Shown here: positions 15,131 to 26,022 of the stretch, one piece after another | Numbering within the stretch: the first letter of the stretch is position 1 | Layout: every line of letters begins with the position of its first letter | Assembly (NCBI GenBank): GCA_016699975.1 | Contig: CP064994.1 | Span: forward strand, 981,874-1,045,873 | Length of the DNA: 64,000 nucleotides | Reading direction: 5' to 3' | From: Candidatus Moraniibacteriota bacterium | Lineage (GTDB): Bacteria > Patescibacteriota > Minisyncoccia > Moranbacterales > UBA1568 | Position numbers and translations under genes: made by a program | Notes under the pieces: generated by a model | Databases searched by the model: none | What the model was told of the DNA's origin: nothing | What the model saw: only the letters and a program-made list of their open reading frames with translations

Positions 15131-17283
15131 TTACGACGAAGGCGAAGAAATTTTTACCCGACCATCGACAACCAAAACACCTGGAGACTTTTCTCTTTCC
15201 GGATACACGAGGATTGGATTGAGGTCAATCTCCACAATATCGGGAATGTCCGAAAGAAGTGTGGAGAGACGAATGAGGCATTCTTCCACTCCAGAAATTG
15301 CAAAGGCTTCGCCACCGCGTGCGCCCAGAAGGATCGGAAACACGCGAAGCTTTTCGAGCATGCCCTTCGCGCGAGCGCGTGAGACCGGCAGAAGCGAAGA
15401 GGTAGAGTCTTGAAGAATTTCTGTGTAAATGCCCCCGCTTCCGACAAGAACCGTGTGCCCGAGATGGGGATCACGAACGCTCCCTGCAATAAGCTCTCGT
15501 GCCCCGGGAGGCGCCATATTCATAACGAGCACTCCATCAAGAGACGCCTGGGGCGCCATCTGTCGAACACGATTCAGCATGGTGCGAATCCCTTCTGCCG
15601 CTTGTTCCCGCGGCACATCAAGGAGGACGCCACCCACATCCGTCTTGTGCGAAATATCGTTCGAAAGAATTTTGAGGGCCAACCGATCGCTGAAAGAGGC
15701 AAGAATATCGCTTGTCTTTGACTCTTCACCTTCAGTAATCCGTGAAAATCGAGGGGTGGGGAAGCCGTAGGCACAGAGGAGTTCCAGTGTTTCGAAAGGC
15801 GAGAAGAGATTTCTGTGAGCGGTGCGTACGTCGCGAAGAATACGCTCCGCGCGCGGGCGATCGATCAGTGATTCCGGAGAAAGAAATGAAAATGTGAGAG
15901 GAACTGATGGCTGAGGAGAGACCTCCCGTGATATTTCCGAAAATCGAGCCACAGCCGACAGCATACGAACACCATCTTCGGGAAAACGTACCACCGGAAT
16001 CTTTTTCCGAATGAGGAATTTCTCTCCTTTCTTGATGAGCTTCCCTCCCATAAAAACGGCGACGACGGGTTTCTTGAACGCTTTCGCTCGAGAGGCGATT
16101 GCCTCTGCCGTTCCCGAAACATCCGTCATCGACTGCGGTGTCAGAATCACAAGCACCATATCGACTCCTCTGTCGGGGAGCACTTCTGTGAGCGTCTCTT
16201 CGTAACGATCCTTCTTCGCATCACCGAGAATATCGATCGGATTTTCGACGCTCGCAGAAGGAGGCAAGAAGGAACGAAGTGTCGCTTTCTTTCTTCTGAA
16301 AGGACCGCGAGCGAAAGGCCGTCGCGAACGAGCGCGTCCGCTGCAAGAACACCTGGTCCTCCGGCATTCGTGACGACTGCGACTCTTTTTCCGGCAGGAA
16401 GTGGCAGAATTGAAAGCGCGCGCGAAAAAAGAAAAAGTTCTTCGGCACTTCGCGCACGCAGAATGCCCGCTTCCTCAAAAAGCGCTTCGTAACTCGCATC
16501 ATTGCCCGCAAGCGAACCCGTATGCGAAGACGACGCATGCGCCCCCGCTTTCGTCGTACCCGACTTGAGCACAATAATTGGCTTTGGGCGTTTGAGACGC
16601 GCCATGCGCCGTGCCGCTTCGCGAATCACAGTTGGATGCTCGAGCTCCTCGGCATAGAGAGCAATAACAGCCGTACGGCGGTCACCTTCACAATACGCAA
16701 GAAGTGCCGATTCATTGAGCACTGCTTTGTTACCGAGACTCGCAAAAAAAGAAATGCCCATCCCAAATTCTCCCACCGTATCGAGAATTGCTGTTCCCAA
16801 AGCTCCGCTCTGGGACAAGAATGCCACCTTCCCTTTTTTCGGAAGCGTCTTCGCGAAAGACGCATTCATCGAGCTATGCGGGTTCACAATCCCGAGACAA
16901 TTCGGTCCCAAAAGAGCGATATCGAATTGGCGAGCAATCGAAACAATTTCTGCTTCGAGCGCATCGTTCCCCGTTTCCCGAAAGCCGGCCGAAATGACAA
17001 TGGTAGCGAGCGTGCCGCGCTCGCCTGCTTCTCGAAGAACCTGAGGAACAATTTTGGCGGGCACGACAATGATGGTGAGGTCGACCGGTTCGGGAATATC
17101 AAGAACCGAACGAAAACACGGAAGCCCGTACAGAGAAACGGTTTTCGGATTCACCGGAAAAATACTCCCGCGAAATTTTTGTTCAACCAAATTCCTCAGG
17201 ATATCGTTCCCAACACTTCCCGTTTCGGTTGAGGCGCCGACGACGGCAATTGATCGCGGTTCGAACAAGGCAGAGAGGTTCAT
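15131..17283 (-). CDS. Acetyl-CoA synthetase (ADP-forming), fused alpha/beta; frameshift near 16285-16300
   Basis: CoA-binding domain (SIAVVGAS...GPNCLGI...), then LPPSASVENPIDILGDA and an ATP-grasp domain. The two ORFs join in the purine run gaagaaagaaag. Confidence 0.8.
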
Positions 17284-17784: not shown

Positions 17785-19864
17785 ATGAAAAATGCAGCGA
17801 AAAAGAATGCGATTTCCATTCAATCGGTCAAAAAGCGAAATGGCCGGACTGTCGTTTTCAATCCGTACAAAATTCGGGCAGCGATTGAGAAGGCGCTCCT
17901 CGCCACACAGGCAGGAGACGAAAAAGACGCGACGCGTCTCGGCAAAAAAGTAGTTTCCCTGCTCGAAAAGAAAGCGTGCGAGTACCGCAAAGGAAAACTG
18001 GGAACATTTCTTCCGAAAATAGAAGAAATTCAAGATCTCGTGGAAACCGTCCTCATGTCGGAAGGATTTCACGAAACTGCGAAGGCCTACATTCTCTACC
18101 GCGAACAACACCGTGAAGTTCGGGAAACTGAAGAGTCGCTCGTCAAAGCCGTGCACCTGGTCGACAAATACATCGGCAATCTTGACTGGCTCGTCAAAGA
18201 AAATGCAAACATGGCTTACTCCCTCCAGGGACTCAACAACTATATTTCTTCGGCGATCAGCACGAAGTACTGGATGAACAAAATTTATTCGAAAGAGATT
18301 CGCGATGCCCACGAATCGGGAGACTTCCACATTCATGACCTTCAACTCATTTCCGCTTACTGTTGCGGCTGGGATCTTGAGGATCTCCTGCGACAAGGAT
18401 TCACCGGTGTTCCCGGCAAGGTATCTTGTAAACCCGCGAAGCACTTGAGCTCTGCTCTCGGACAAATGGTGAACTTCATCTATACCTTGCAAGGGGAAAT
18501 TGCGGGCGCCCAGGCTTTCTCGAATTTCGACACTCTCCTCGCACCCTTCGTTCGAAGAGACGGCCTTTCCTACGAACAGGTAAAACAAGAGATACAATCG
18601 TTCGTCTTCAACATGAATGTCTCGACGAGGGTCGGCTTTCAAACTCCCTTTTCTAATATCACCCTCGACCTCATTCCTCCCAAAATCCTTGCCGGAGAAT
18701 CTGTTATTATTGGCGGCAAACCGCAAAAAGAAACCTATGGAGAGTTCGCCACGGAAATGGCCATGATTAATCGCGCTTTCGCAGAAGTGATGTGCGAGGG
18801 CGATGCCTCGGGCGCATCTTCACCTTCCCCATCCCGACCTATAACATCACCAAGAACTTCGACTGGGAAAATCCGGCGTACGAACCCCTCTGGGAAATGA
18901 CGGCGAAGTATGGGATTCCGTATTTTGCAAATTTCGTAAACTCCGATATGAGTCCCGACGATGCGCGCAGCATGTGCTGCCGACTCCGGCTTGATAATCG
19001 CGAGCTTCGGAAAAGAGGTGGTGGCCTCTTCGGCGCCAATCCCCTGACGGGTTCAATCGGCGTCGTCACGGTCAACCTCCCCGCATCGGCTATCTCGCAA
19101 AAAATGAGAAAGATTTTTTCACACGACTCGACCGCCTCATGGATCTCGCGAAGGACAGCTTGGAGGTAAAAAGAAAAGTGGTCGAACAGCTGACCGAGAA
19201 AGGCCTCTATCCCTATACCAAGTTCTACCTCGGAAACATCAAGAAACGCTTTTACCAGTATTGGAAAAATCATTTCTCGACGATCGGCCTCGTCGGCACA
19301 AACGAAGCGCTCAAAAATCTTCTCGATACCGATATCACGACCGAAAAGGGGCAAGCATTCGCAAAGAAAATACTTACTCACATGCGCGAGCGGATCGGCA
19401 CGTACCAAGAGAAAACGAATACGCTTTACAATCTCGAAGCGACTCCCGCCGAGGGAACTGCCTATCGCCTCGCCCTCCTCGACACGAAACGATTCCCGGA
19501 TATCCGTGTCGCAAATGAGCGAGACGTACGTGAAAAACACGCGGAACCGTACTATACGAATTCTTCACACCTCCCTGTCGGCTTTACGGATGATATTTTC
19601 GAAGCGCTTGATCTGCAAGATCATCTCCAAACGCAGTACACCGGAGGCACGGTCCTCCATGGCTTCATTGGCGAGCGCATCACAGACACCGTTTCGGCTC
19701 GCACTCTCGTTCGGCGCATCGCGGAAACCTATCATCTCCCGTACTTCACCCTCTCTCCCACACTCAGTATTTGTCCCTCTCACGGCTACCTCCCCGGCGA
19801 ACACACTCATTGTCCTTCGTGTATTGTGGTCCCTGTTCAATCAGAATACAAAAAAGTATCCTAG
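17785..19864 (+). CDS. nrdD: Anaerobic ribonucleoside-triphosphate reductase NrdD body; two frameshifts (~18808 in a G-run, ~19080 in a C-run)
   Basis: ATP-cone (ISIQSVKKRNGRTVVFNPYKIRAAIEKA) and NrdD core motifs. The three ORFs 17635-, 18792- and 19139- join into one contiguous NrdD-like sequence across the frame switches. Confidence 0.8.
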
Positions 19865-20039
19865 CAATTCTTCTCGCAACTTTCGCAAAAAAGTACCCAA
19901 AGATTTCCAGAGTAGAAAGAAGACCAAGAGCTCTCGGATCGTCGAACAGAGGAAGAGACGGGGAGGGAGAGCATTTTTGGAAACTCGTGATAACGCATTA
20001 AAAGAGAACAAAGTAAAAATAAATCGTAAGAAATAATGT

Positions 20040-20378
20040 ATGTGTACCATCACGTGCTACGACTGCAAGAAAGTGCTCGAAAAAGGAGCGGAGTACATGC
20101 CCTATGAAGTGCAGGGGGAAACACTTGCAAAATGCCGAACGTGTCACGAAGTCAGTCCCGCCCTCACCGGATTTCAGAAGGCAGAAGTGTATACACGCGT
20201 CGTCGGATATATCCGCCCGGTTGAACAGTGGAATAAAGGGAAGCAGCAAGAATACGCCGATCGCATGGAGTATGTGCCAGCGAGCAACAGAATTCGTTCG
20301 AAAATTTTAGAAGTATGGGCCTGGAACAACATCTTTCGAATTCAAATGAGAAAGACGACTCTCTGTCAGATTTTGTAG
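20040..20378 (+). CDS. NrdD C-terminal zinc-ribbon plus glycyl-radical domain encoded as a separate ORF
   Basis: CYDC-x16-CRTC, then YTRVVGYIRPVEQWNKGKQQEYADR (glycyl-radical RVxGY and WNxGK motifs). Confidence 0.6.
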   Translation: MCTITCYDCKKVLEKGAEYMPYEVQGETLAKCRTCHEVSPALTGFQKAEVYTRVVGYIRPVEQWNKGKQQEYADRMEYVPASNRIRSKILEVWAWNNIFRIQMRKTTLCQIL

Positions 20379-20427
20379 AAGTTCCCAGTCACGGTACCCA
20401 AATATCGAACACTTTCTTCGATCAAAG

Positions 20428-21690
20428 GTGAGAAACAGGCAAGCACTCGAAAGAATCGACATAGAAACGAAACTCTCTGAACAGAAGGAACAAAATGAAT
20501 TACAAAAACTCCTTGAAATCGCTCTTTCATCATCAGATACATCCCTACAAAGAACTGGAGCGCGTTTTATTTCATCCCTCGAAGAAGCTGCAAGGAGAGA
20601 GTTTTGTGAAAAACTCAGTAATTCTTTGGTAGAAATGTCTCTCTCATCGGATACAAAAAAACATTTGGTTCTCGCAGAAATTATTCGACACAATTCTGAG
20701 TATATCCCTCTCGAGAAAATAAAAGATAGACTAACCTCTCTTCTCGAGAGAGACCTCGGGAGCAAAGATATTTCAGTACAAGAAGTAGGAGTAAAAATTA
20801 TTGAACTTCTTCCAGAGAGTGCTGATAAAAGGCATTACGAGTCCAAACTGAGGGAATGGTTGCTCCAGAAGATTCTCTCACAAGAGAGTCAGGAACAAAT
20901 CAATGCCGCAAGACTTCTTGGATTTACTTCCCACGAAATTCTTTTTGAGTTAGGAGAAAAAATACTGCATGGAGACAATGAGGAAGCTAAAGAAATTACA
21001 GCAAGATATATAAAGAGACTTGATCCACTCAAATCAGTTCCCCTTCTGCGTCTCACGTTCAATACAAAAAGTTTGCAGCTTAAGAAAATTGGAGCCGAGG
21101 CAACAACCCGACTTTTTCGAACCCATAACAAACAACCCAAAGTTCCGCTATTTATCACGAGTGCAATCACAGAAACCGTCCGCGCTTCTCTTGAATCGGA
21201 TGATCGAAATATTCAGAGAATCGGATCAGAGATGTTGAAAGATGTAACAAACACAAAAGACCTCATAGATCTTGTACGATTGGGAGTGAATTCCAATGAT
21301 AGGACAGTCAAATTGAATGCAATTGCAGCAATACGTTTCATCGACACCAGATTTGATTTCGGAAAAAGAGCAATGTCAGACTTTATAGAACAGGCGCTAC
21401 AATCAGAAGATACAAACATACAAAGAGTCGCTATCACTATATCTCGACACGTCCCGGAACCAGAAAAAGACAAGTGCATGAATCAGGCGTTTGCATTAGT
21501 CAGCAAACTTGTCAACTCAGAAAATAGAGCGAGTCAGAAGAGGGGGACTGAAATGATGTACTATATAAATCACCCAAAAATAGAAACTCTCTTCTCTGAA
21601 AAAATAGAGCCGGATCAGGAGTTGTTGAATATTCTTCTCTTTTCACGATTATACCCAGATCATGAGAGTGCCTCTAAATTTTCAGGGTAA
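20428..21690 (+). CDS. HEAT-repeat (PBS-lyase-like) protein, low-GC
   Basis: Repeated alpha-helical ~30-aa units (NIQRIGSEMLKD..., NIQRVAITISRH...); about 37% GC versus about 50% for the flanks. Confidence 0.5.
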   Translation: MRNRQALERIDIETKLSEQKEQNELQKLLEIALSSSDTSLQRTGARFISSLEEAARREFCEKLSNSLVEMSLSSDTKKHLVLAEIIRHNSEYIPLEKIKDRLTSLLERDLGSKDISVQEVGVKIIELLPESADKRHYESKLREWLLQKILSQESQEQINAARLLGFTSHEILFELGEKILHGDNEEAKEITARYIKRLDPLKSVPLLRLTFNTKSLQLKKIGAEATTRLFRTHNKQPKVPLFITSAITETVRASLESDDRNIQRIGSEMLKDVTNTKDLIDLVRLGVNSNDRTVKLNAIAAIRFIDTRFDFGKRAMSDFIEQALQSEDTNIQRVAITISRHVPEPEKDKCMNQAFALVSKLVNSENRASQKRGTEMMYYINHPKIETLFSEKIEPDQELLNILLFSRLYPDHESASKFSG

Positions 21691-22081
21691 ATCTCCCAAA
21701 AACAGGATCAAGGATGAGTATTCTTCGTGGTGGAACAATCGAGAAAAAATAATTATTCGGCACATAAAAGAAAAATCGTTTCGCGGATGGATGCGTGCAT
21801 ATGAACAACATGATAAATGGTTTGATTCCGGATTTGATTATGTTCCCATTGAACCGATTCAATCATTTGCATTTAGAGAGAATGCCGTTGATGTATATGC
21901 TGGCGTCTTCGATATCGATTTAAAGCATTGGCTCAGCCTATCCGGGCAAAGATTCAAGAATGAACTTCTAGAAATGAGGGAACGGATTACTTCTGTACTC
22001 CAAAGCATGAAGATACGGCATGGCGATCTCCATCTTGGAAATTTTTTCGTTGTTTTTGAAAGAAACGGAGGATCGACCTAA
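21662..22081 (+). CDS. Protein-kinase-like (APH/Kdo-kinase type) fragment, truncated after the catalytic loop
   Basis: HGDLHLGNFFV catalytic-loop motif near the C-terminus, no downstream metal-binding D motif; overlaps the HEAT ORF end by 29 nt in another frame. Confidence 0.35.
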   Translation: MRVPLNFQGKSPKNRIKDEYSSWWNNREKIIIRHIKEKSFRGWMRAYEQHDKWFDSGFDYVPIEPIQSFAFRENAVDVYAGVFDIDLKHWLSLSGQRFKNELLEMRERITSVLQSMKIRHGDLHLGNFFVVFERNGGST

Positions 22082-22183
22082 GCTGCCCTCGTCTCGAGGA
22101 GATTTTGATAAATCAACAGTAAAAAAATAATTTTCCAAGAAACCAGAGGAGACACACAATGAAATGCTGCTTTTGACTCTCGT

Positions 22184-22909
22184 TTGATGGAAGAACATAC
22201 CATGTACATCGCCGGGTACCAACCACTCACACTTCTCGACTACCCCGGAAAACTTGCGGCCGTTGGATTTACTTTCGGGTGCGTGCTTCGGTGTCCGTTT
22301 TGTCACAATCCGGAACTCGTGGAAAGAGATGAGTCATTTCTTCATCGCTCGGGCGGCAACAAGGCCGAAGCATTCCTTGCGTTCCTTGCAAAAAGAGTCG
22401 GAAAGCTCGACGGCGTCTGCATTACGGGAGGCGAACCGACACTGCATGCGGATCTTCTTGACTACCTTCGTGCAATAAAGGCAATGGGGTTTCTTGTGAA
22501 GCTCGACACAAACGGCGCCTTCCCCGAAACAGTACGAGCTATTTTGCAAACGAATCTTGTTGATTTTTGGGCAATGGATATCAAACACGCGCCGGAAAAA
22601 TATTCGCTCGCTTCCGAAAGCGATACTCTCTCGATCGAAAATTTCCGGGAAAGTGTTCGGCTCCTCTTCGCAAGTGGCGTGTCGTTCGAATTTCGAACAA
22701 CGGTCGTACCAGGAATTCATACCGAGGAAGATTTCGAAGAAATTGGAAAATGGATCAAGGGCGCACCGTCCTACGCCCTCCAGGAATTCAGAGTGACAAA
22801 GCTCCTCAATCCTCGTCTCGCAGAAAAAAGCGCCGGAAAACACCTCTCGCTCGAGAGAATACAAACGCGAGTCTTGCCCTACGTCCAAAAGGTGACGATT
22901 CGCCGATAA
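22184..22909 (+). CDS. nrdG: Anaerobic ribonucleotide reductase activating protein (radical SAM)
   Basis: GCVLRCPFCHNPE CxxxCxxC radical-SAM motif; size and order relative to nrdD. Confidence 0.8.
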   Translation: MMEEHTMYIAGYQPLTLLDYPGKLAAVGFTFGCVLRCPFCHNPELVERDESFLHRSGGNKAEAFLAFLAKRVGKLDGVCITGGEPTLHADLLDYLRAIKAMGFLVKLDTNGAFPETVRAILQTNLVDFWAMDIKHAPEKYSLASESDTLSIENFRESVRLLFASGVSFEFRTTVVPGIHTEEDFEEIGKWIKGAPSYALQEFRVTKLLNPRLAEKSAGKHLSLERIQTRVLPYVQKVTIRR

Positions 22910-23938: not shown

Positions 23939-26022
23939 CTACTTCTTACCGCCGCCCATTACTTCCTGCGCCACATTCGAGGGAACTTCCGCATAGTGGC
24001 CAAACTCCATGGAGTAGCTCGCCCGTCCCTGCGACATTGAGCGGAGCGCGGTCGCATAACCGAACATCGCGGCAAGCGGCACTTCTGCGAGAATCTCTTT
24101 TACGCGCGCATTTCCTTCGCCGCGATCGTTCATCTCTTTGATAATACCTCGCTTGGCGTTTACATCTCCGACCGCATCTCCCATAAATGCTTCCGGCGTA
24201 ATCACAACTACTTTCATGATCGGTTCAAGTATGATCGGCTTTGCTTTCCGCATTGCTTCTTTAAACGCCATTGAACCCGCTATTTTGAAGGCCGCCTCAG
24301 AAGAATCGACATCATGGTAGGAACCGTCGTAGACGGTTGCTTTCACATCGACGACCGGATATCCCGCGAGAACGCCGTTTTGCATCGCCTCCTGAATACC
24401 CTTGTCGATTGGCTTGATATATTCTTGCGGAATAACGCCGCCCTTGATTTCATCGATAAATTCGTATCCCTTCCCTGCCTCCTGAGGTTCGAGGCGAATC
24501 CAGCAGTGGCCATATTGCCCGCGTCCGCCCGACTGTTTGATGTATTTCCCTTCGGCTTCGGCAAGCATTTTTACTGTTTCACGATATGCTACCTGCGGGC
24601 GTCCAACATTGACGTCTACCTTAAACTCGCGTCGCATACGATCAACAATGATGTCGAGGTGAAGTTCACCCATACCTGAGAGAATGGTCTGTCCACTCTC
24701 TTCGTCAGTATGAACACGGAAGGTTGGATCTTCTTCGGAGAGTTTTTTGAGCGCGATACCCATTTTTTCCTGATCCGCTTTCGTTTTCGGCTCAACCGCA
24801 ATATCAATAACTGGTTCCGGAAAGACGATCGACTCAAGCACAACAGGATGGTCGGGATCGCAGAGCGTGTCTCCAGTCGTCGTCGCCTTCATTCCAACGA
24901 GCGCGCCGATTCCGCCCGCGGAAAGCTCAGAAATTTCTTCACGATGATTTGCATGAATTTGCAGAATGCGACCAATACGCTCTTTTTCTCCTTTCGTAGA
25001 ATTGAGAACATAAGAGCCCGCTTTCACTGTACCCGAATAGACTCGAAAGAAGGTGAGCTGTCCCACAAACGGATCGGTCGCCACTTTGAAAGCAAGGGCC
25101 GAAAACGGAGCGTTTTCATCAACCTTCACTTCCACCTCAGTATTCGTTTTGGGATCAATTCCCCGGGCCGCCGGAATATCAAGAGGCGACGGGAGGTACG
25201 AAATTACGGCATCAAGAACAAGTTGCACTCCTTTGTTGCGAAGCGCCGTTCCAACAAGTACCGGAATGAGCCGAGTGGAGATAACCGCTTTTCGGAGCGC
25301 CGCCTTTATTTCGGCGGAAGAAATTTCTTCTCCGCTCAAAATTTTTCAATAAGCACGTCGTCCGTTTCGGAAATTTTTTCCACCATGGTATCACGCCAGC
25401 GCTTTGCCGTCTCCAGCATATTTTCCGGTATCTCGATCGGCACAATTTTTTCTCCCATATCTCCCTCGAAGGTATACGCCTTCATCTCTATGAGATCGAT
25501 GATGCCCGAAAAATCAGACCGAACGCCGATCGGATACTGAATCGCAACAGCATTCGGTGTAAGACGATTCCAGATCGAAGAAAGAGCCGCTTCAAAGTCA
25601 GCACCTTCCTTATCTATTTTGTTGATAAAACAAACACGCGGGACACTGTACTTGTCCGCCTGGCGCCACACGGTTTCGGACTGAGGTTCAACCCCTTCCT
25701 TCCCGTCGAAAACGACTACTCCACCATCAAGAACACGAAGCGATCTCTCTACCTCGACTGTAAAATCGACGTGGCCTGGCGTATCGATAATGTTGATCTG
25801 ATGATCCTTCCAATAGCAGGTTGTCGCAGCACTCGTAATCGTAATGCCGCGCTCACGTTCTTGCTCCATCCAGTCCATGGTTGCCTCTCCTTCATGCACC
25901 TCGCCGATTTTATGCGTAATGCCGGTATAGAACAAAACGCGTTCGGTTGTTGTAGTTTTTCCGGCATCGATGTGGGCGATAATGCCGATATTCCGCAGTT
26001 TTTCGAGAGGCGTATGAGTCAT
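23939..26022 (-). CDS. fusA: Elongation factor G; frameshift in an A5/T4 run near 25347-25357
   Basis: [23 protein letters not shown], full EF-G domains II-V. ORFs 25336-26022 and 23939-25339 join as ...[23 protein letters not shown]. Confidence 0.9.

What the first reader, a model, noticed from the sequence alone, without database searches (positions are those of the whole stretch)
17785..22909. Unusual nrdD locus: zinc-ribbon/glycyl-radical domain as a separate ORF, with a low-GC HEAT-repeat plus kinase-fragment module between nrdD and nrdG
The NrdD body (17785-19864) ends right after ...HCPSC. A new ATG-initiated ORF 175 bp downstream (20040-20378) encodes a complete CxxC-x16-CxxC zinc ribbon plus the glycyl-radical motif (YTRVVGYIRP...WNKGKQQEY), which normally forms the contiguous NrdD C-terminus. 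The 175-bp gap has stops in all frames. This could be a genuinely split NrdD, a scar of a lost intervening element, or a partial C-terminal duplication. Group I introns are known in phage T4 nrdD; that part is speculation. Downstream, a 37%-GC HEAT-repeat gene and a truncated HGDLHxGN kinase-like ORF separate nrdD from its activase nrdG.
Basis: partly seen in the sequence, partly recalled or inferred. Interest (0 to 1): 0.6.

Follow-up and report, generated by a model that had tools for sequence, protein, structure and literature searches.

The report
Two-piece anaerobic ribonucleotide reductase
In this tiny-genome (CPR) bacterium the radical-carrying tip of the oxygen-sensitive enzyme that makes DNA building blocks is encoded as its own 9-kDa protein, one of a widespread and apparently undescribed family of detachable, probably replaceable radical modules for this enzyme class.

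Summary
The core observation is real. The large nrdD ORF (17785-19864) keeps its ATP-cone, barrel and zinc site but stops about one residue before the radical glycine. A separate ORF at 20040 encodes a four-Cys zinc ribbon plus the complete glycyl-radical loop (RVVG56Y).

It is not an assembly artefact, intron or intein. Two 99.8%-identical contigs from other sequencing runs and many Patescibacteria genomes show the same layout. The small protein belongs to a conserved family:
- Among 80 species-level loci, 27 have a full-length NrdD with its own glycine loop, then the small ORF, then nrdG.
- 20 have a truncated NrdD, as here.
- About 13 carry the small ORF unlinked.
- Truncated forms fall in at least six places on a rough tree, so the built-in loop was probably lost repeatedly.

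Best reading: the family is a GrcA/YfiD-like "spare part" for class III RNR, and it has become the obligate radical subunit in this lineage. I found no description of this in the searchable literature.

- The two frameshifts in nrdD are probably assembly indels.
- The small ORF is 83 aa in two near-identical contigs, not 112.
- "HEAT gene plus kinase fragment" is one 613-aa strain-specific gene broken by seven frame changes, and it is unrelated to nrd.

The parts
17785..19864 (+). nrdD large ORF ('NrdD-L'): ATP-cone, class III RNR barrel and zinc site, but no radical glycine. In this assembly it is split over three frames by two 1-nt deletions (about 18812 and 19081).
   Evidence: Pfam ATP-cone plus NRDD positions 1-196, 197-301 and 308-527 on the three pieces. 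tblastn with the L001 body gives 83-86% aa identity in three frames. The deletions sit next to GGG and CCC runs. The corrected ORF has 693 codons and only the terminal stop.
19772..19822 (+). Zinc-binding motif kept in the large ORF (CPSH-x9-CPSC).
   Evidence: Aligns to the T. maritima NrdD (4coi) and P. copri NrdD (8p23) zinc site. Conserved in all relatives.
19823..19864 (+). Decayed remnant of the strand that leads into the glycine loop (IVVPVQSEYKKVS*). The ORF stops about one residue before the position of the radical Gly.
   Evidence: The phmmer alignment to TmNrdD runs through ...CPVCGKAKVD. Continuing it by eye with the chain sequence shown, SEYKKVS* lines up with DEYMRIVGY. Clearer remnants occur in relatives: EVFLKVGEEEL, EVFFRVADETKQK, TETYLKFGEEG.
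19865..20039 (.). 175-bp spacer with stops in all frames and no structured-RNA signal. The last ~23 nt (AAATAAATCGTAAGAAA[T/A]AATGT) form a conserved leader of the small ORF.
   Evidence: Three-frame translation. Rfam negative. Folding z=0.17. The leader is identical in L003 and nearly so in L015. L003 carries 366 extra bp here with a 121-aa ORF.
20040..20278 (+). Small ORF ('NrdD-S'), conserved part (aa 1-80): zinc ribbon C6/C9/C32/C35 and glycyl-radical loop with Gly56 (codon 20205-20207). As assembled the ORF runs on to 20378.
   Evidence: Pfam NRDD 45.8 bits, profile 511-562. 100% identical to the 83-aa P0001 over aa 1-80. The family alignment has invariant C6, C9, C32, C35, R53, G56, Y57, W64, N65, K68, E71 and R75. 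Median dN/dS is 0.167 over 32 pairs among 46 family members; every pair involving the window had saturated dS.
20279..22200 (.). Strain-specific low-GC insert between the small ORF and nrdG. L003/L004 carry a different 484-bp segment here with a 106-aa ORF.
   Evidence: blastn break points against L003, the L003 sequence and the G+C profile.
20315..22130 (+). One 613-aa gene (weak HEAT-like repeats; C-terminal HGDLHLGN...GDFDKS motif), read by stage 1 as two ORFs. It is broken by seven frame changes in this assembly and is not part of the RNR system.
   Evidence: P0308 (QQS20891.1) is the 420-aa annotated piece. The intact P0314 (613 aa) is 100% identical over aa 32-459. Homologues of 614-626 aa cover 99-100% of the joined query and lie away from nrd genes. 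Pfam gives sub-threshold HEAT_2 only.
22187..22909 (+). nrdG, the radical-SAM activase (start at ATG 22187 or 22202).
   Evidence: Pfam Radical_SAM E=2.2e-18 and Fer4_12. 64% aa identity to L001 NrdG. The L003 junction lies at 22201.

Best explanation
The locus encodes a class III (anaerobic, glycyl-radical) ribonucleotide reductase made of two polypeptides plus its activase.

NrdD-L (693 aa after correcting two assembly indels) provides the ATP-cone, the catalytic barrel and a zinc site. It has lost the glycine loop. NrdD-S (83 aa in near-identical contigs) is a free-standing copy of the whole NrdD glycyl-radical domain: a zinc ribbon, the RVVG56Y loop and the WNxGKxxE tail.

Proposed mechanism (inferred, not shown):
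1. NrdG uses S-adenosylmethionine to abstract a hydrogen from Gly56 of NrdD-S.
2. The activated small protein inserts its loop into the barrel of NrdD-L, next to the catalytic cysteine loop.
3. The thiyl radical for NTP reduction is generated there.

Evolutionary reading: the small protein began as an operon-encoded spare glycyl-radical domain. It is analogous to GrcA/YfiD for pyruvate formate-lyase and lets a cell replace the oxygen-cleaved tip without remaking the 80-kDa enzyme. In several Patescibacteria lineages, including this one, the built-in loop then decayed and the spare part became the only radical carrier.

Shown: the sequences, their conservation, the gene order, and the three genomic configurations. 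The patchy distribution of truncated forms rests on one rough tree. Inferred: activation by NrdG, docking in trans, and the repair role.
For: 1. The split is real and conserved. It has the same stop and the same small ORF in independent assemblies and in relative L001. Loci L008-L011 also show a 695-720-aa body, an 81-96-aa ORF and nrdG.
2. All 37 word-indexed homologues of the small ORF are 64-113 aa. With a family profile, the best 150 of 1.84 billion representative proteins are all 42-159 aa.
3. The functional residues are invariant and median dN/dS is 0.167.
4. Among 80 species-representative loci:
   - 27 have a full NrdD with an intact loop, then the small ORF, then nrdG. This group includes cultured Minisyncoccus archaeiphilus.
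   - 20 have a truncated body plus the small ORF.
   - About 13 have the small ORF unlinked.
   - Genome OZ246412.1 has an unlinked small ORF and a canonical nrdD-nrdG elsewhere.
5. Truncated bodies carry decayed loop remnants. They fall in at least six separate places on an NJ tree among full-length forms. This suggests repeated loss of the cis loop; every locus in that set was retrieved through a GRD match.
6. Within a genome the small protein's loop resembles that genome's own NrdD loop more than others: 87% against 77% aa, and it is the best match in 16 of 27.
7. The small ORF has its own ATG and a conserved leader.
8. AlphaFold2 of NrdD-S alone gives zinc-ribbon hairpins and a low-confidence Gly loop. 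That is compatible with a segment that orders only on docking, but a low-confidence model carries little weight.
Against: - There is no biochemical, expression or structural evidence.
- NrdD-L keeps its own zinc ribbon, so the complex would hold two per protomer. Where the second one sits is unknown.
- In this assembly nrdD-L carries two frameshifts. I attribute them to assembly error by analogy with the neighbouring gene. No read-level or same-strain data cover those two sites; the hits are distant NrdDs that only show the conserved frame.
- Only 64 kb of a roughly 1.05-Mb genome was inspected, so a second, complete nrdD elsewhere cannot be excluded.
- The NJ tree is rough (BLOSUM distances, no support values).
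- The higher within-genome similarity of the two loops could reflect gene conversion rather than a shared docking site (third-position identity 0.61 against 0.43).
Confidence: 0.7

Rival explanations
1. The small protein is functional but is not the catalytic radical donor in trans. It might be a radical reservoir or decoy for NrdG, a regulator, or an assembly factor. The truncated large subunits would then be inactive or do something else.
For: In 27 genomes the large subunit still has its own intact loop, so the small protein is not strictly needed for catalysis there. The extra zinc ribbon has no obvious place in the known NrdD architecture. The model of the small protein alone is low-confidence.
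Against: Every residue of the canonical loop and tail that contacts the barrel in NrdD is invariant in the small protein. Truncated bodies remain intact ORFs across 20 species-level genomes; the window body is 83-86% aa identical to L001 at 79% nt identity, and in most loci where downstream sequence was retrieved the body is still followed by nrdG. That makes little sense for an enzyme with no radical source.
Confidence: 0.13
2. The locus is decaying. nrdD is a pseudogene (truncated and frameshifted), the small ORF is a leftover duplicate, and the organism obtains deoxynucleotides by salvage from a host or by another RNR.
For: There are two frameshifts in nrdD-L in this assembly. CPR bacteria are reduced-genome symbionts (general knowledge). 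A foreign gene is inserted in the operon.
Against: The adjacent gene needs seven frame changes relative to a sequence 100% identical over aa 32-459, which points to assembly indels. A CoA-ligase gene nearby is frameshifted too. Outside the two 1-nt gaps the body has no internal stops. The truncation point and the small ORF are conserved across many species under purifying selection.
Confidence: 0.08
3. The two ORFs are joined after transcription or translation into a canonical single-chain NrdD, by a group I/II intron, an intein or split intein, ribosomal bypass, or stop-codon readthrough.
For: Some relatives do carry large LAGLIDADG-type insertions in nrdD (L071 is 1163 aa and L090 is 1111 aa).
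Against: There is no Rfam hit at gathering or permissive thresholds, and spacer folding gives z=0.17. Spacer length varies from -21 to 517 nt and the spacer sometimes encodes unrelated ORFs. Relative frames and stop codons differ between relatives. A joined product would carry two zinc ribbons and a decayed loop remnant. Pfam finds no Hint or intein domain in the pieces. Unlinked small ORFs exist.
Confidence: 0.02

Closest known systems
GrcA/YfiD of E. coli and Y06I of phage T4: autonomous glycyl-radical 'spare part' proteins for pyruvate formate-lyase
   Same: [quoted passage not shown] Both coexist with a full-length enzyme (here in 27 related genomes). Both are presumed to be activated by the enzyme's own radical-SAM activase. 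The truncated large subunit here ends almost exactly where oxygen cleaves such enzymes.
   Different: The small protein is homologous to NrdD (Pfam NRDD), not to the PFL-type Gly_radical domain. It carries a zinc ribbon, which GrcA lacks. It is usually encoded inside the nrdD-nrdG operon. In this and many other lineages the enzyme's own loop is gone, so it would be obligatory rather than a repair part. Reviews state that spare parts are known only for formate lyases (PMC13450708; PMC8683613).
Canonical single-chain class III RNR (NrdD of T4, E. coli, T. maritima, P. copri) with NrdG
   Same: It has an ATP-cone, a barrel, a C-terminal zinc site, a Gly loop with a WNxGK tail and an adjacent radical-SAM activase. 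The loop sequence of NrdD-S is nearly identical to that of single-chain NrdDs of the same clade.
   Different: The glycine loop is on a separate polypeptide with its own second zinc ribbon. The large chain stops just before the radical glycine.
Split class II RNR NrdJa/NrdJb (Pseudomonas aeruginosa)
   Same: An RNR catalytic component is encoded as two adjacent ORFs, with a C-terminal zinc-finger-containing part on the second chain (PMC9669993).
   Different: That enzyme is a different class (B12-dependent, no glycyl radical). It has a different split point, and the second chain there serves reduction and turnover, not radical storage.
Group I intron in phage T4 nrdD (sunY); homing-endonuclease 'genes in pieces' RNR (Aeh1 nrdA, from memory)
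   Same: An RNR gene is interrupted by non-coding or foreign DNA.
   Different: There is no intron model match and no endonuclease, and each ORF has its own zinc ribbon. The arrangement is ancient and conserved rather than a recent insertion.

Membership tests
Class III RNR catalytic subunit (NrdD) | [quoted passage not shown] | tested here: met
   Pfam NRDD (E=6e-70, 3e-26 and 5e-70 on the three frame pieces) and ATP-cone (E=1e-20). Aligns to solved NrdDs 8p23, 4coi and 1h78.
Class III RNR catalytic subunit (NrdD) | C-terminal zinc-binding site | tested here: met
   The body has CPSH-x9-CPSC aligned to the Tm/Pc NrdD zinc site. The small ORF has four invariant Cys.
Class III RNR catalytic subunit (NrdD) | Radical glycine (RVxGY) on the same polypeptide as the barrel | tested here: not met
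   The body ends ...SEYKKVS*, about one residue before the Gly position. The motif lies only in the separate ORF at 20040. There is no other copy in the 64-kb window.
Class III RNR catalytic subunit (NrdD) | Cognate radical-SAM activase NrdG encoded nearby | tested here: met
   22187-22909 has Radical_SAM (E=2e-18) and Fer4_12, with the CxxxCxxC motif (CVLRCPFC) in the translation.
GrcA/YfiD autonomous glycyl-radical cofactor (IPR011140; Pfam Gly_radical) | Sequence homology to the PFL-type glycyl-radical domain | tested here: not met
   Pfam at E<=0.1 gives NRDD only and no Gly_radical. NCBIfam gives only sub-threshold full-length NrdD models.
GrcA/YfiD autonomous glycyl-radical cofactor (IPR011140; Pfam Gly_radical) | Small free-standing protein carrying the radical-glycine motif of its parent enzyme | tested here: met
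   83 aa in the near-identical contigs (112 as assembled here), with RVVG56Y and the tail invariant across the family.
GrcA/YfiD autonomous glycyl-radical cofactor (IPR011140; Pfam Gly_radical) | Coexists with a full-length parent enzyme that has its own glycine loop | tested here: not met
   Not met in this window because the body is truncated. Met in 27 related genomes and in OZ246412.1.
GrcA/YfiD autonomous glycyl-radical cofactor (IPR011140; Pfam Gly_radical) | Activated by the parent enzyme's activase and restores activity to oxygen-cleaved enzyme | not testable with these tools
   Needs anaerobic biochemistry and EPR.
Self-splicing intron in nrdD (as in phage T4) | Match to group I/II intron covariance models; exons join in frame to a canonical NrdD | tested here: not met
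   Rfam finds nothing at gathering score over the whole window and only noise at E<=10 over 19500-20500. z=0.17. A joined product would duplicate the zinc ribbon.
Protein kinase-like fold (for the 21662-22081 ORF) | Match to a kinase family model | tested here: not met
   No Pfam, NCBIfam or PADLOC kinase hit, even with the intact 613-aa P0314. Only the HGDLHLGN...GDFDKS motif is seen by eye.

The most novel reading that the evidence does not exclude
Patescibacteria (CPR) carry a previously unrecognised family of autonomous NrdD-type glycyl-radical proteins. This would be the first 'spare part' for a glycyl-radical enzyme other than formate lyases. In multiple lineages, including this Moraniibacteriota genome, it has become the sole radical-bearing subunit. 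That would give the first naturally two-subunit glycyl-radical enzyme in which the radical domain is a separate, exchangeable polypeptide. A second, independent route to the same end appears in other CPR lineages: 47-50-aa Gly-loop ORFs without a zinc ribbon.
Probability: 0.6. Interest if true: 0.85.

Novelty: new variant of a known kind. Interest (0 to 1): 0.74.

Why it matters
Glycyl-radical enzymes are destroyed when oxygen cleaves the chain at the radical glycine. The only known countermeasure is the GrcA/YfiD spare part for pyruvate formate-lyase. The field has explicitly asked whether other glycyl-radical enzymes have spare parts (PMC8683613; PMC13450708).

These loci make that question testable for the essential enzyme of anaerobic DNA-precursor synthesis. 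They also supply natural controls:
- genomes with a full NrdD plus the spare;
- genomes with a truncated NrdD plus the spare;
- genomes with an unlinked spare.

One of these genomes belongs to a cultured organism, Minisyncoccus archaeiphilus.

The family would also show that the radical domain can work in trans. That bears on how activases reach the buried glycine. It may further explain how ultra-small symbionts with minimal protein-synthesis budgets tolerate transient oxygen.

For annotation, hundreds of 50-115-aa ORFs now labelled 'anaerobic ribonucleoside-triphosphate reductase' or 'hypothetical', and the truncated large subunits next to them, should not be read as fragments or pseudogenes.

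Tried and rejected
- **Intron or structured RNA in the spacer.** Rfam over the whole window at gathering score gave two tRNAs only. A permissive scan of 19500-20500 gave noise only. Folding z was 0.17. Rejected.
- **Stop-codon recoding.** Body stop codons are TAG, TGA and TAA in different relatives. Rejected.
- **Promoter or terminator in the spacer.** No sigma-70-like site was found. There was only a weak minus-strand terminator-like hairpin. Uninformative.
- **Defence-system or other identity for the HEAT/kinase gene and the L003 cassette ORFs.** PADLOC, NCBIfam and Pfam gave nothing above threshold.
- **A MazG-like guess for the 92-aa ORF in the L015 spacer.** No Pfam hit. Dropped.
- **Exact look-ups.** The window's 112-aa ORF, P0308 and P0314 are not on record. 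I therefore could not recover a short-read contig across the two nrdD frameshift sites.
- **Metagenome pattern scans for the two indel sites.** The first found nothing. The second found only distant NrdDs at 65% identity. These carry the extra base and show the conserved NLPRIGY frame, but they are not the same strain.
- **A weak tblastn hit of the Gly loop at about 52.7-52.9 kb.** It lies in an unrelated secreted-protein ORF. Noise.
- **AlphaFold2 of the small protein alone.** pLDDT was 62.6, too low for a fold search.
- **Literature.** Eight full-text searches (split NrdD; NrdD plus Patescibacteria; spare part plus NrdD; autonomous glycyl radical plus RNR; and others) found no description of a split or spare-part class III RNR.

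Full report
**1. What is in the window**

On the + strand, 17785-19864 encodes a class III ribonucleotide reductase catalytic subunit. It has an ATP-cone and Pfam NRDD profile positions 1-527 of 562. As assembled it is spread over three frames.

Alignment to a 79%-identical relative (L001) shows two single-base deletions in the window, at about 18812 (TCGGG-CGC) and about 19081 (CTCCC-CGC). Putting one base back at each site gives 693 codons with only the terminal stop.

The ORF ends ...SICPSHGYLPGEHTHCPSC-IVVPVQSEYKKVS*. A 175-bp spacer follows, with stops in all three frames. An ATG ORF then starts at 20040. It encodes C6-x2-C9-x22-C32-x2-C35 followed by AEVYTRVVG56YIRPVEQWNKGKQQEYADRMEY. 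This matches NRDD profile positions 511-562, which overlap the zinc-site positions already present in the large ORF.

The activase nrdG lies at 22187-22909. Between the small ORF and nrdG, G+C falls from about 0.50 to 0.37-0.41.

**2. The split is not an artefact**

Two contigs from unrelated sequencing runs (L003, L004) match 19534-19946 and 19974-20278 at 99-99.8% identity. They have no gap across the stop codon and they encode the small protein as an 83-aa ORF, P0001.

A Moraniibacteriota MAG (L001) has the same neighbours and the same layout. Its 692-aa body ends ...CPQCITISTTKEYQKV*. A 168-bp spacer, an 83-aa ORF and then nrdG follow. More distant contigs have bodies of 695-720 aa, small ORFs of 81-96 aa and nrdG, with spacers of 27-68 bp.

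The body stop codons are TAG, TGA and TAA in different genomes, and the relative frames differ. Rfam finds no intron or other RNA family. The spacer folds no better than shuffled sequence (z=0.17). Splicing, bypass and recoding are therefore not supported.

**3. Where the large subunit stops**

The phmmer alignment to T. maritima NrdD (4coi) pairs YFTLSPTLSICPSHGYLPGEHTHCPSCIVVPVQ with YFAFNTKISVCEDGHAFYGE--RCPVCGKAKVD. The T. maritima chain then continues EYMRIVGYLVPV, whereas the window continues SEYKKVS*. Lining these up by eye, the chain ends about one residue before the radical glycine.

Other truncated bodies show the decayed loop more clearly. Examples are CPKCVVEQKTEVFFRVADETKQK...EVFLKVGEEEL... 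and CPKCIIEQKTETYLKFGEEGMYVKNKIN*. The clade's canonical form is CPKCVVEQKTEVYSRVVGYIRPVEQWNKGK. These large subunits therefore descend from ordinary NrdDs that lost the loop.

**4. The small protein is a family**

All 37 homologues found by the word-indexed search are 64-113 aa. In their alignment the four Cys, R53, G56, Y57, I58, R59, P60, Q63, W64, N65, K68, E71 and R75 are invariant.

A profile search of 1.84 billion representative proteins returned 636 hits at E<=1e-10. The best 150 are all 42-159 aa. Median dN/dS of the 70-codon core is 0.167 over 32 pairs with dS<1.5. Pfam assigns the protein to NRDD and not to the PFL-type Gly_radical family, and no dedicated NCBIfam model exists.

**5. 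Three genomic configurations**

I scanned one genome per species (GTDB) with the family profile and kept the best 80 loci. They come from Moraniibacteriota, Parcubacteria, Komeili-, Staskawicz- and Nealsonbacteria, Paceibacterota and the cultured Minisyncoccus archaeiphilus PMX.108. Re-analysis of those loci gave:

| Configuration | Loci |
|---|---|
| (a) Full-length NrdD with an intact Gly loop, then the small ORF (-21 to 245 nt between reading frames), then nrdG; includes Minisyncoccus | 27 |
| (b) Truncated body plus small ORF, as in the window | 20 |
| (c) Small ORF with no nrdD or nrdG within 4 kb | about 13 |
| Canonical NrdDs matched only through their own loop | 17 |
| Not classifiable (contig edge, very short contig, or body not recognised) | 3 |

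The complete chromosome OZ246412.1 has both an unlinked small ORF (L060) and a canonical nrdD-nrdG (L087). The same holds for L073 and L091.

On a neighbour-joining tree of the barrel region, truncated bodies fall in at least six separate places among full-length ones. For example, L045 sits inside a tight group of full-length forms, and L053 is next to L055. This suggests repeated loss of the built-in loop. The tree is rough and has no support values. Every locus in this set was retrieved through a glycine-loop match, so a truncated body without a small ORF could not have been detected.

Within configuration (a), the small protein's loop is closer to its own genome's NrdD loop than to those of other genomes. 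The figures are 87% aa and 80% nt against 77% and 69%. It is the top match in 16 of 27. This indicates concerted evolution or gene conversion.

**6. Interpretation**

The simplest account is as follows.
1. The whole glycyl-radical domain (zinc site plus loop plus tail, the unit defined structurally in P. copri NrdD; PMC11226230) was duplicated behind nrdD.
2. The copy was kept as an autonomous radical carrier, activated by NrdG and able to occupy the barrel.
3. That made the built-in loop dispensable, and it decayed in several lineages, including this one.

This mirrors the GrcA/YfiD spare part, which replaces the oxygen-cleaved tip of pyruvate formate-lyase. The large subunit here ends almost exactly at the position where oxygen cleaves glycyl-radical enzymes (general knowledge of GRE oxygen cleavage; PMC8683613).

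The sequences, conservation and configurations are shown. The repeated-loss pattern rests on the rough tree. Activation by NrdG, docking in trans and the repair role are inferred.

AlphaFold2 of the small protein alone gives zinc-ribbon hairpins and a low-confidence Gly loop (mean pLDDT 62.6). That is compatible with a segment that orders only on docking, but it proves nothing.

Open problems:
- The large subunit keeps its own zinc ribbon, so the position of the second ribbon is unknown.
- Only 64 kb of the genome could be checked for another nrdD. None was found.

**7. Literature**

Eight full-text searches found no split or spare-part class III RNR.

A 2026 review states that formate lyases are the only glycyl-radical enzyme class with identified spare-part proteins (PMC13450708). 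Andorfer et al. note that only YfiD and Y06I are validated and that spare parts for other enzymes are possible (PMC8683613).

Split class II RNR (NrdJa/NrdJb) is known (PMC9669993). The library does not cover subscription journals, so prior description elsewhere cannot be ruled out.

**8. The 'HEAT plus kinase-fragment module'**

The 420-aa ORF is QQS20891.1 (IPL87_05110) of a Candidatus Moraniibacteriota MAG with a 1,048,819-bp contig. That identifies the source genome.

Its 90%-identity cluster also holds a 613-aa protein from a Logan run assembly (P0314). P0314 is 100% identical to the window over aa 32-459. The window follows the rest of it only through seven frame changes, 2>0>2>1>0>2>1>0.

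Homologues of 614-626 aa in Magasanikbacteria and others cover 99-100% of the joined sequence and end ...GDFDKSMVK..., as the window does. So 20315-22130 is one gene and is not truncated. The fragmentation most likely reflects homopolymer indels in the assembly. I recall that this locus-tag series comes from long-read activated-sludge MAGs, but I did not verify that.

The same kind of error probably explains the two nrdD frameshifts and one in the neighbouring CoA-ligase gene. The second nrdD deletion breaks the conserved NLPRIGY motif, which distant NrdDs encode with one more base.

The gene's homologues are not next to nrd genes. In L003/L004 a different 484-bp segment with a 106-aa ORF occupies the same slot, 20279-22200 in window coordinates. 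It is therefore a strain-variable insertion and not part of the RNR system.

Pfam supports HEAT repeats only below threshold (21-25 bits against a cut-off of 27.7). No kinase model matches.

The insert begins inside the last codons of the small ORF. This, together with the indels, produces the artefactual 112-aa reading.

**9. Verdict**

This is a naturally two-piece class III RNR, and it is one state of a widespread, conserved and apparently undescribed family of autonomous NrdD-type glycyl-radical proteins in Patescibacteria.

I rate it a new variant of a known kind (spare-part or split glycyl-radical enzymes and RNRs), with interest 0.74. The main uncertainty is the absence of any functional or structural test of action in trans.

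Noticed in passing
L014:5786-5938 and L012:6160-6303 (related loci): This looks like a second route to a two-piece NrdD in other CPR lineages. The bodies end ...CPKCD(E/Q)EIGY... with no Gly loop. They are followed 35-67 bp later, behind strong AGGAGG ribosome sites, by 47-50-aa ORFs that encode only the Gly loop and have no zinc ribbon (e.g. MTPTEMNATRTKCEVYSRVVGYIRPVSQWNEGKQSEYADRVEFRVCGCGE). nrdG comes next. 46 of the 120 closest homologues of the window's body C-terminus have this tail type.
   Followed up: partly
L003:414-779 and L003:1088-1571, against window 19947-19973 and 20279-22200; L015:3690-4000: Both intergenic slots of the nrdD-L / nrdD-S / nrdG operon vary between close strains. 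L003/L004 carry a 121-aa ORF in the first slot and a 106-aa ORF in the second. L015 has a 92-aa ORF in the first slot. None has a Pfam, NCBIfam or PADLOC match.
   Followed up: partly
window 15149-17283 (-), 18812, 19081, 20315-22130, 23939-25339 (-): The assembly appears to carry many single-base indels. There are two in nrdD, one in the CoA-ligase gene (about 16275) and seven frame changes in the 613-aa gene. The EF-G-like ORF is only 466 aa. ORF-based readings elsewhere in this window should be treated with care.
   Followed up: partly
L071:821-4309 and L090:881-4213: The full-length NrdDs of a Staskawiczbacteria MAG and a Paceibacterota MAG are 1163 and 1111 aa. Each has a roughly 400-aa in-frame insertion that looks like a LAGLIDADG-type intein. 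The insertions sit at different positions in the barrel.
   Followed up: no
L001:7930-8015: The body-to-small-ORF spacer of L001 contains a near-perfect 27-nt AT-rich inverted repeat (CTGTTTTTCAGAAAAAATTGTTTTTTT ... AAAAAAACAATTTTTTCTGAAAAACAG). It is absent from the window's spacer.
   Followed up: no
small ORFs in L016-L050 (e.g. L021:3965-4252, L024:3989-4255): Many small proteins end in Cys-rich tails (...ACC, ...CGC, ...ACTSC, ...GACGACC). The adjacent full-length NrdDs mostly end in Lys-rich tails, a few with one or two Cys. The window's clade ends ...VPQGA or ...APSAA. A redox or metal role for the Cys tail is conceivable but was not tested.
   Followed up: no
L012:6160-6303: The 47-aa mini-ORF of L012 has a variant loop (YSRVCGWYTGTRCWNKGK) instead of RVVGYIRPVxQWNxGK. 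Its large subunit gene is also interrupted by a run of N.
   Followed up: no
window 20315-22130; P0309-P0312, P0314: This is a conserved CPR protein family of about 613-626 aa. It has weak HEAT-like repeats and a conserved C-terminal segment (IRHIKxxSFxGW ... DYVPIEPIQSFAF ... IRHGDLHxGNFF ... GDFDKS) that recalls a minimal kinase catalytic core. It matches no family model.
   Followed up: partly
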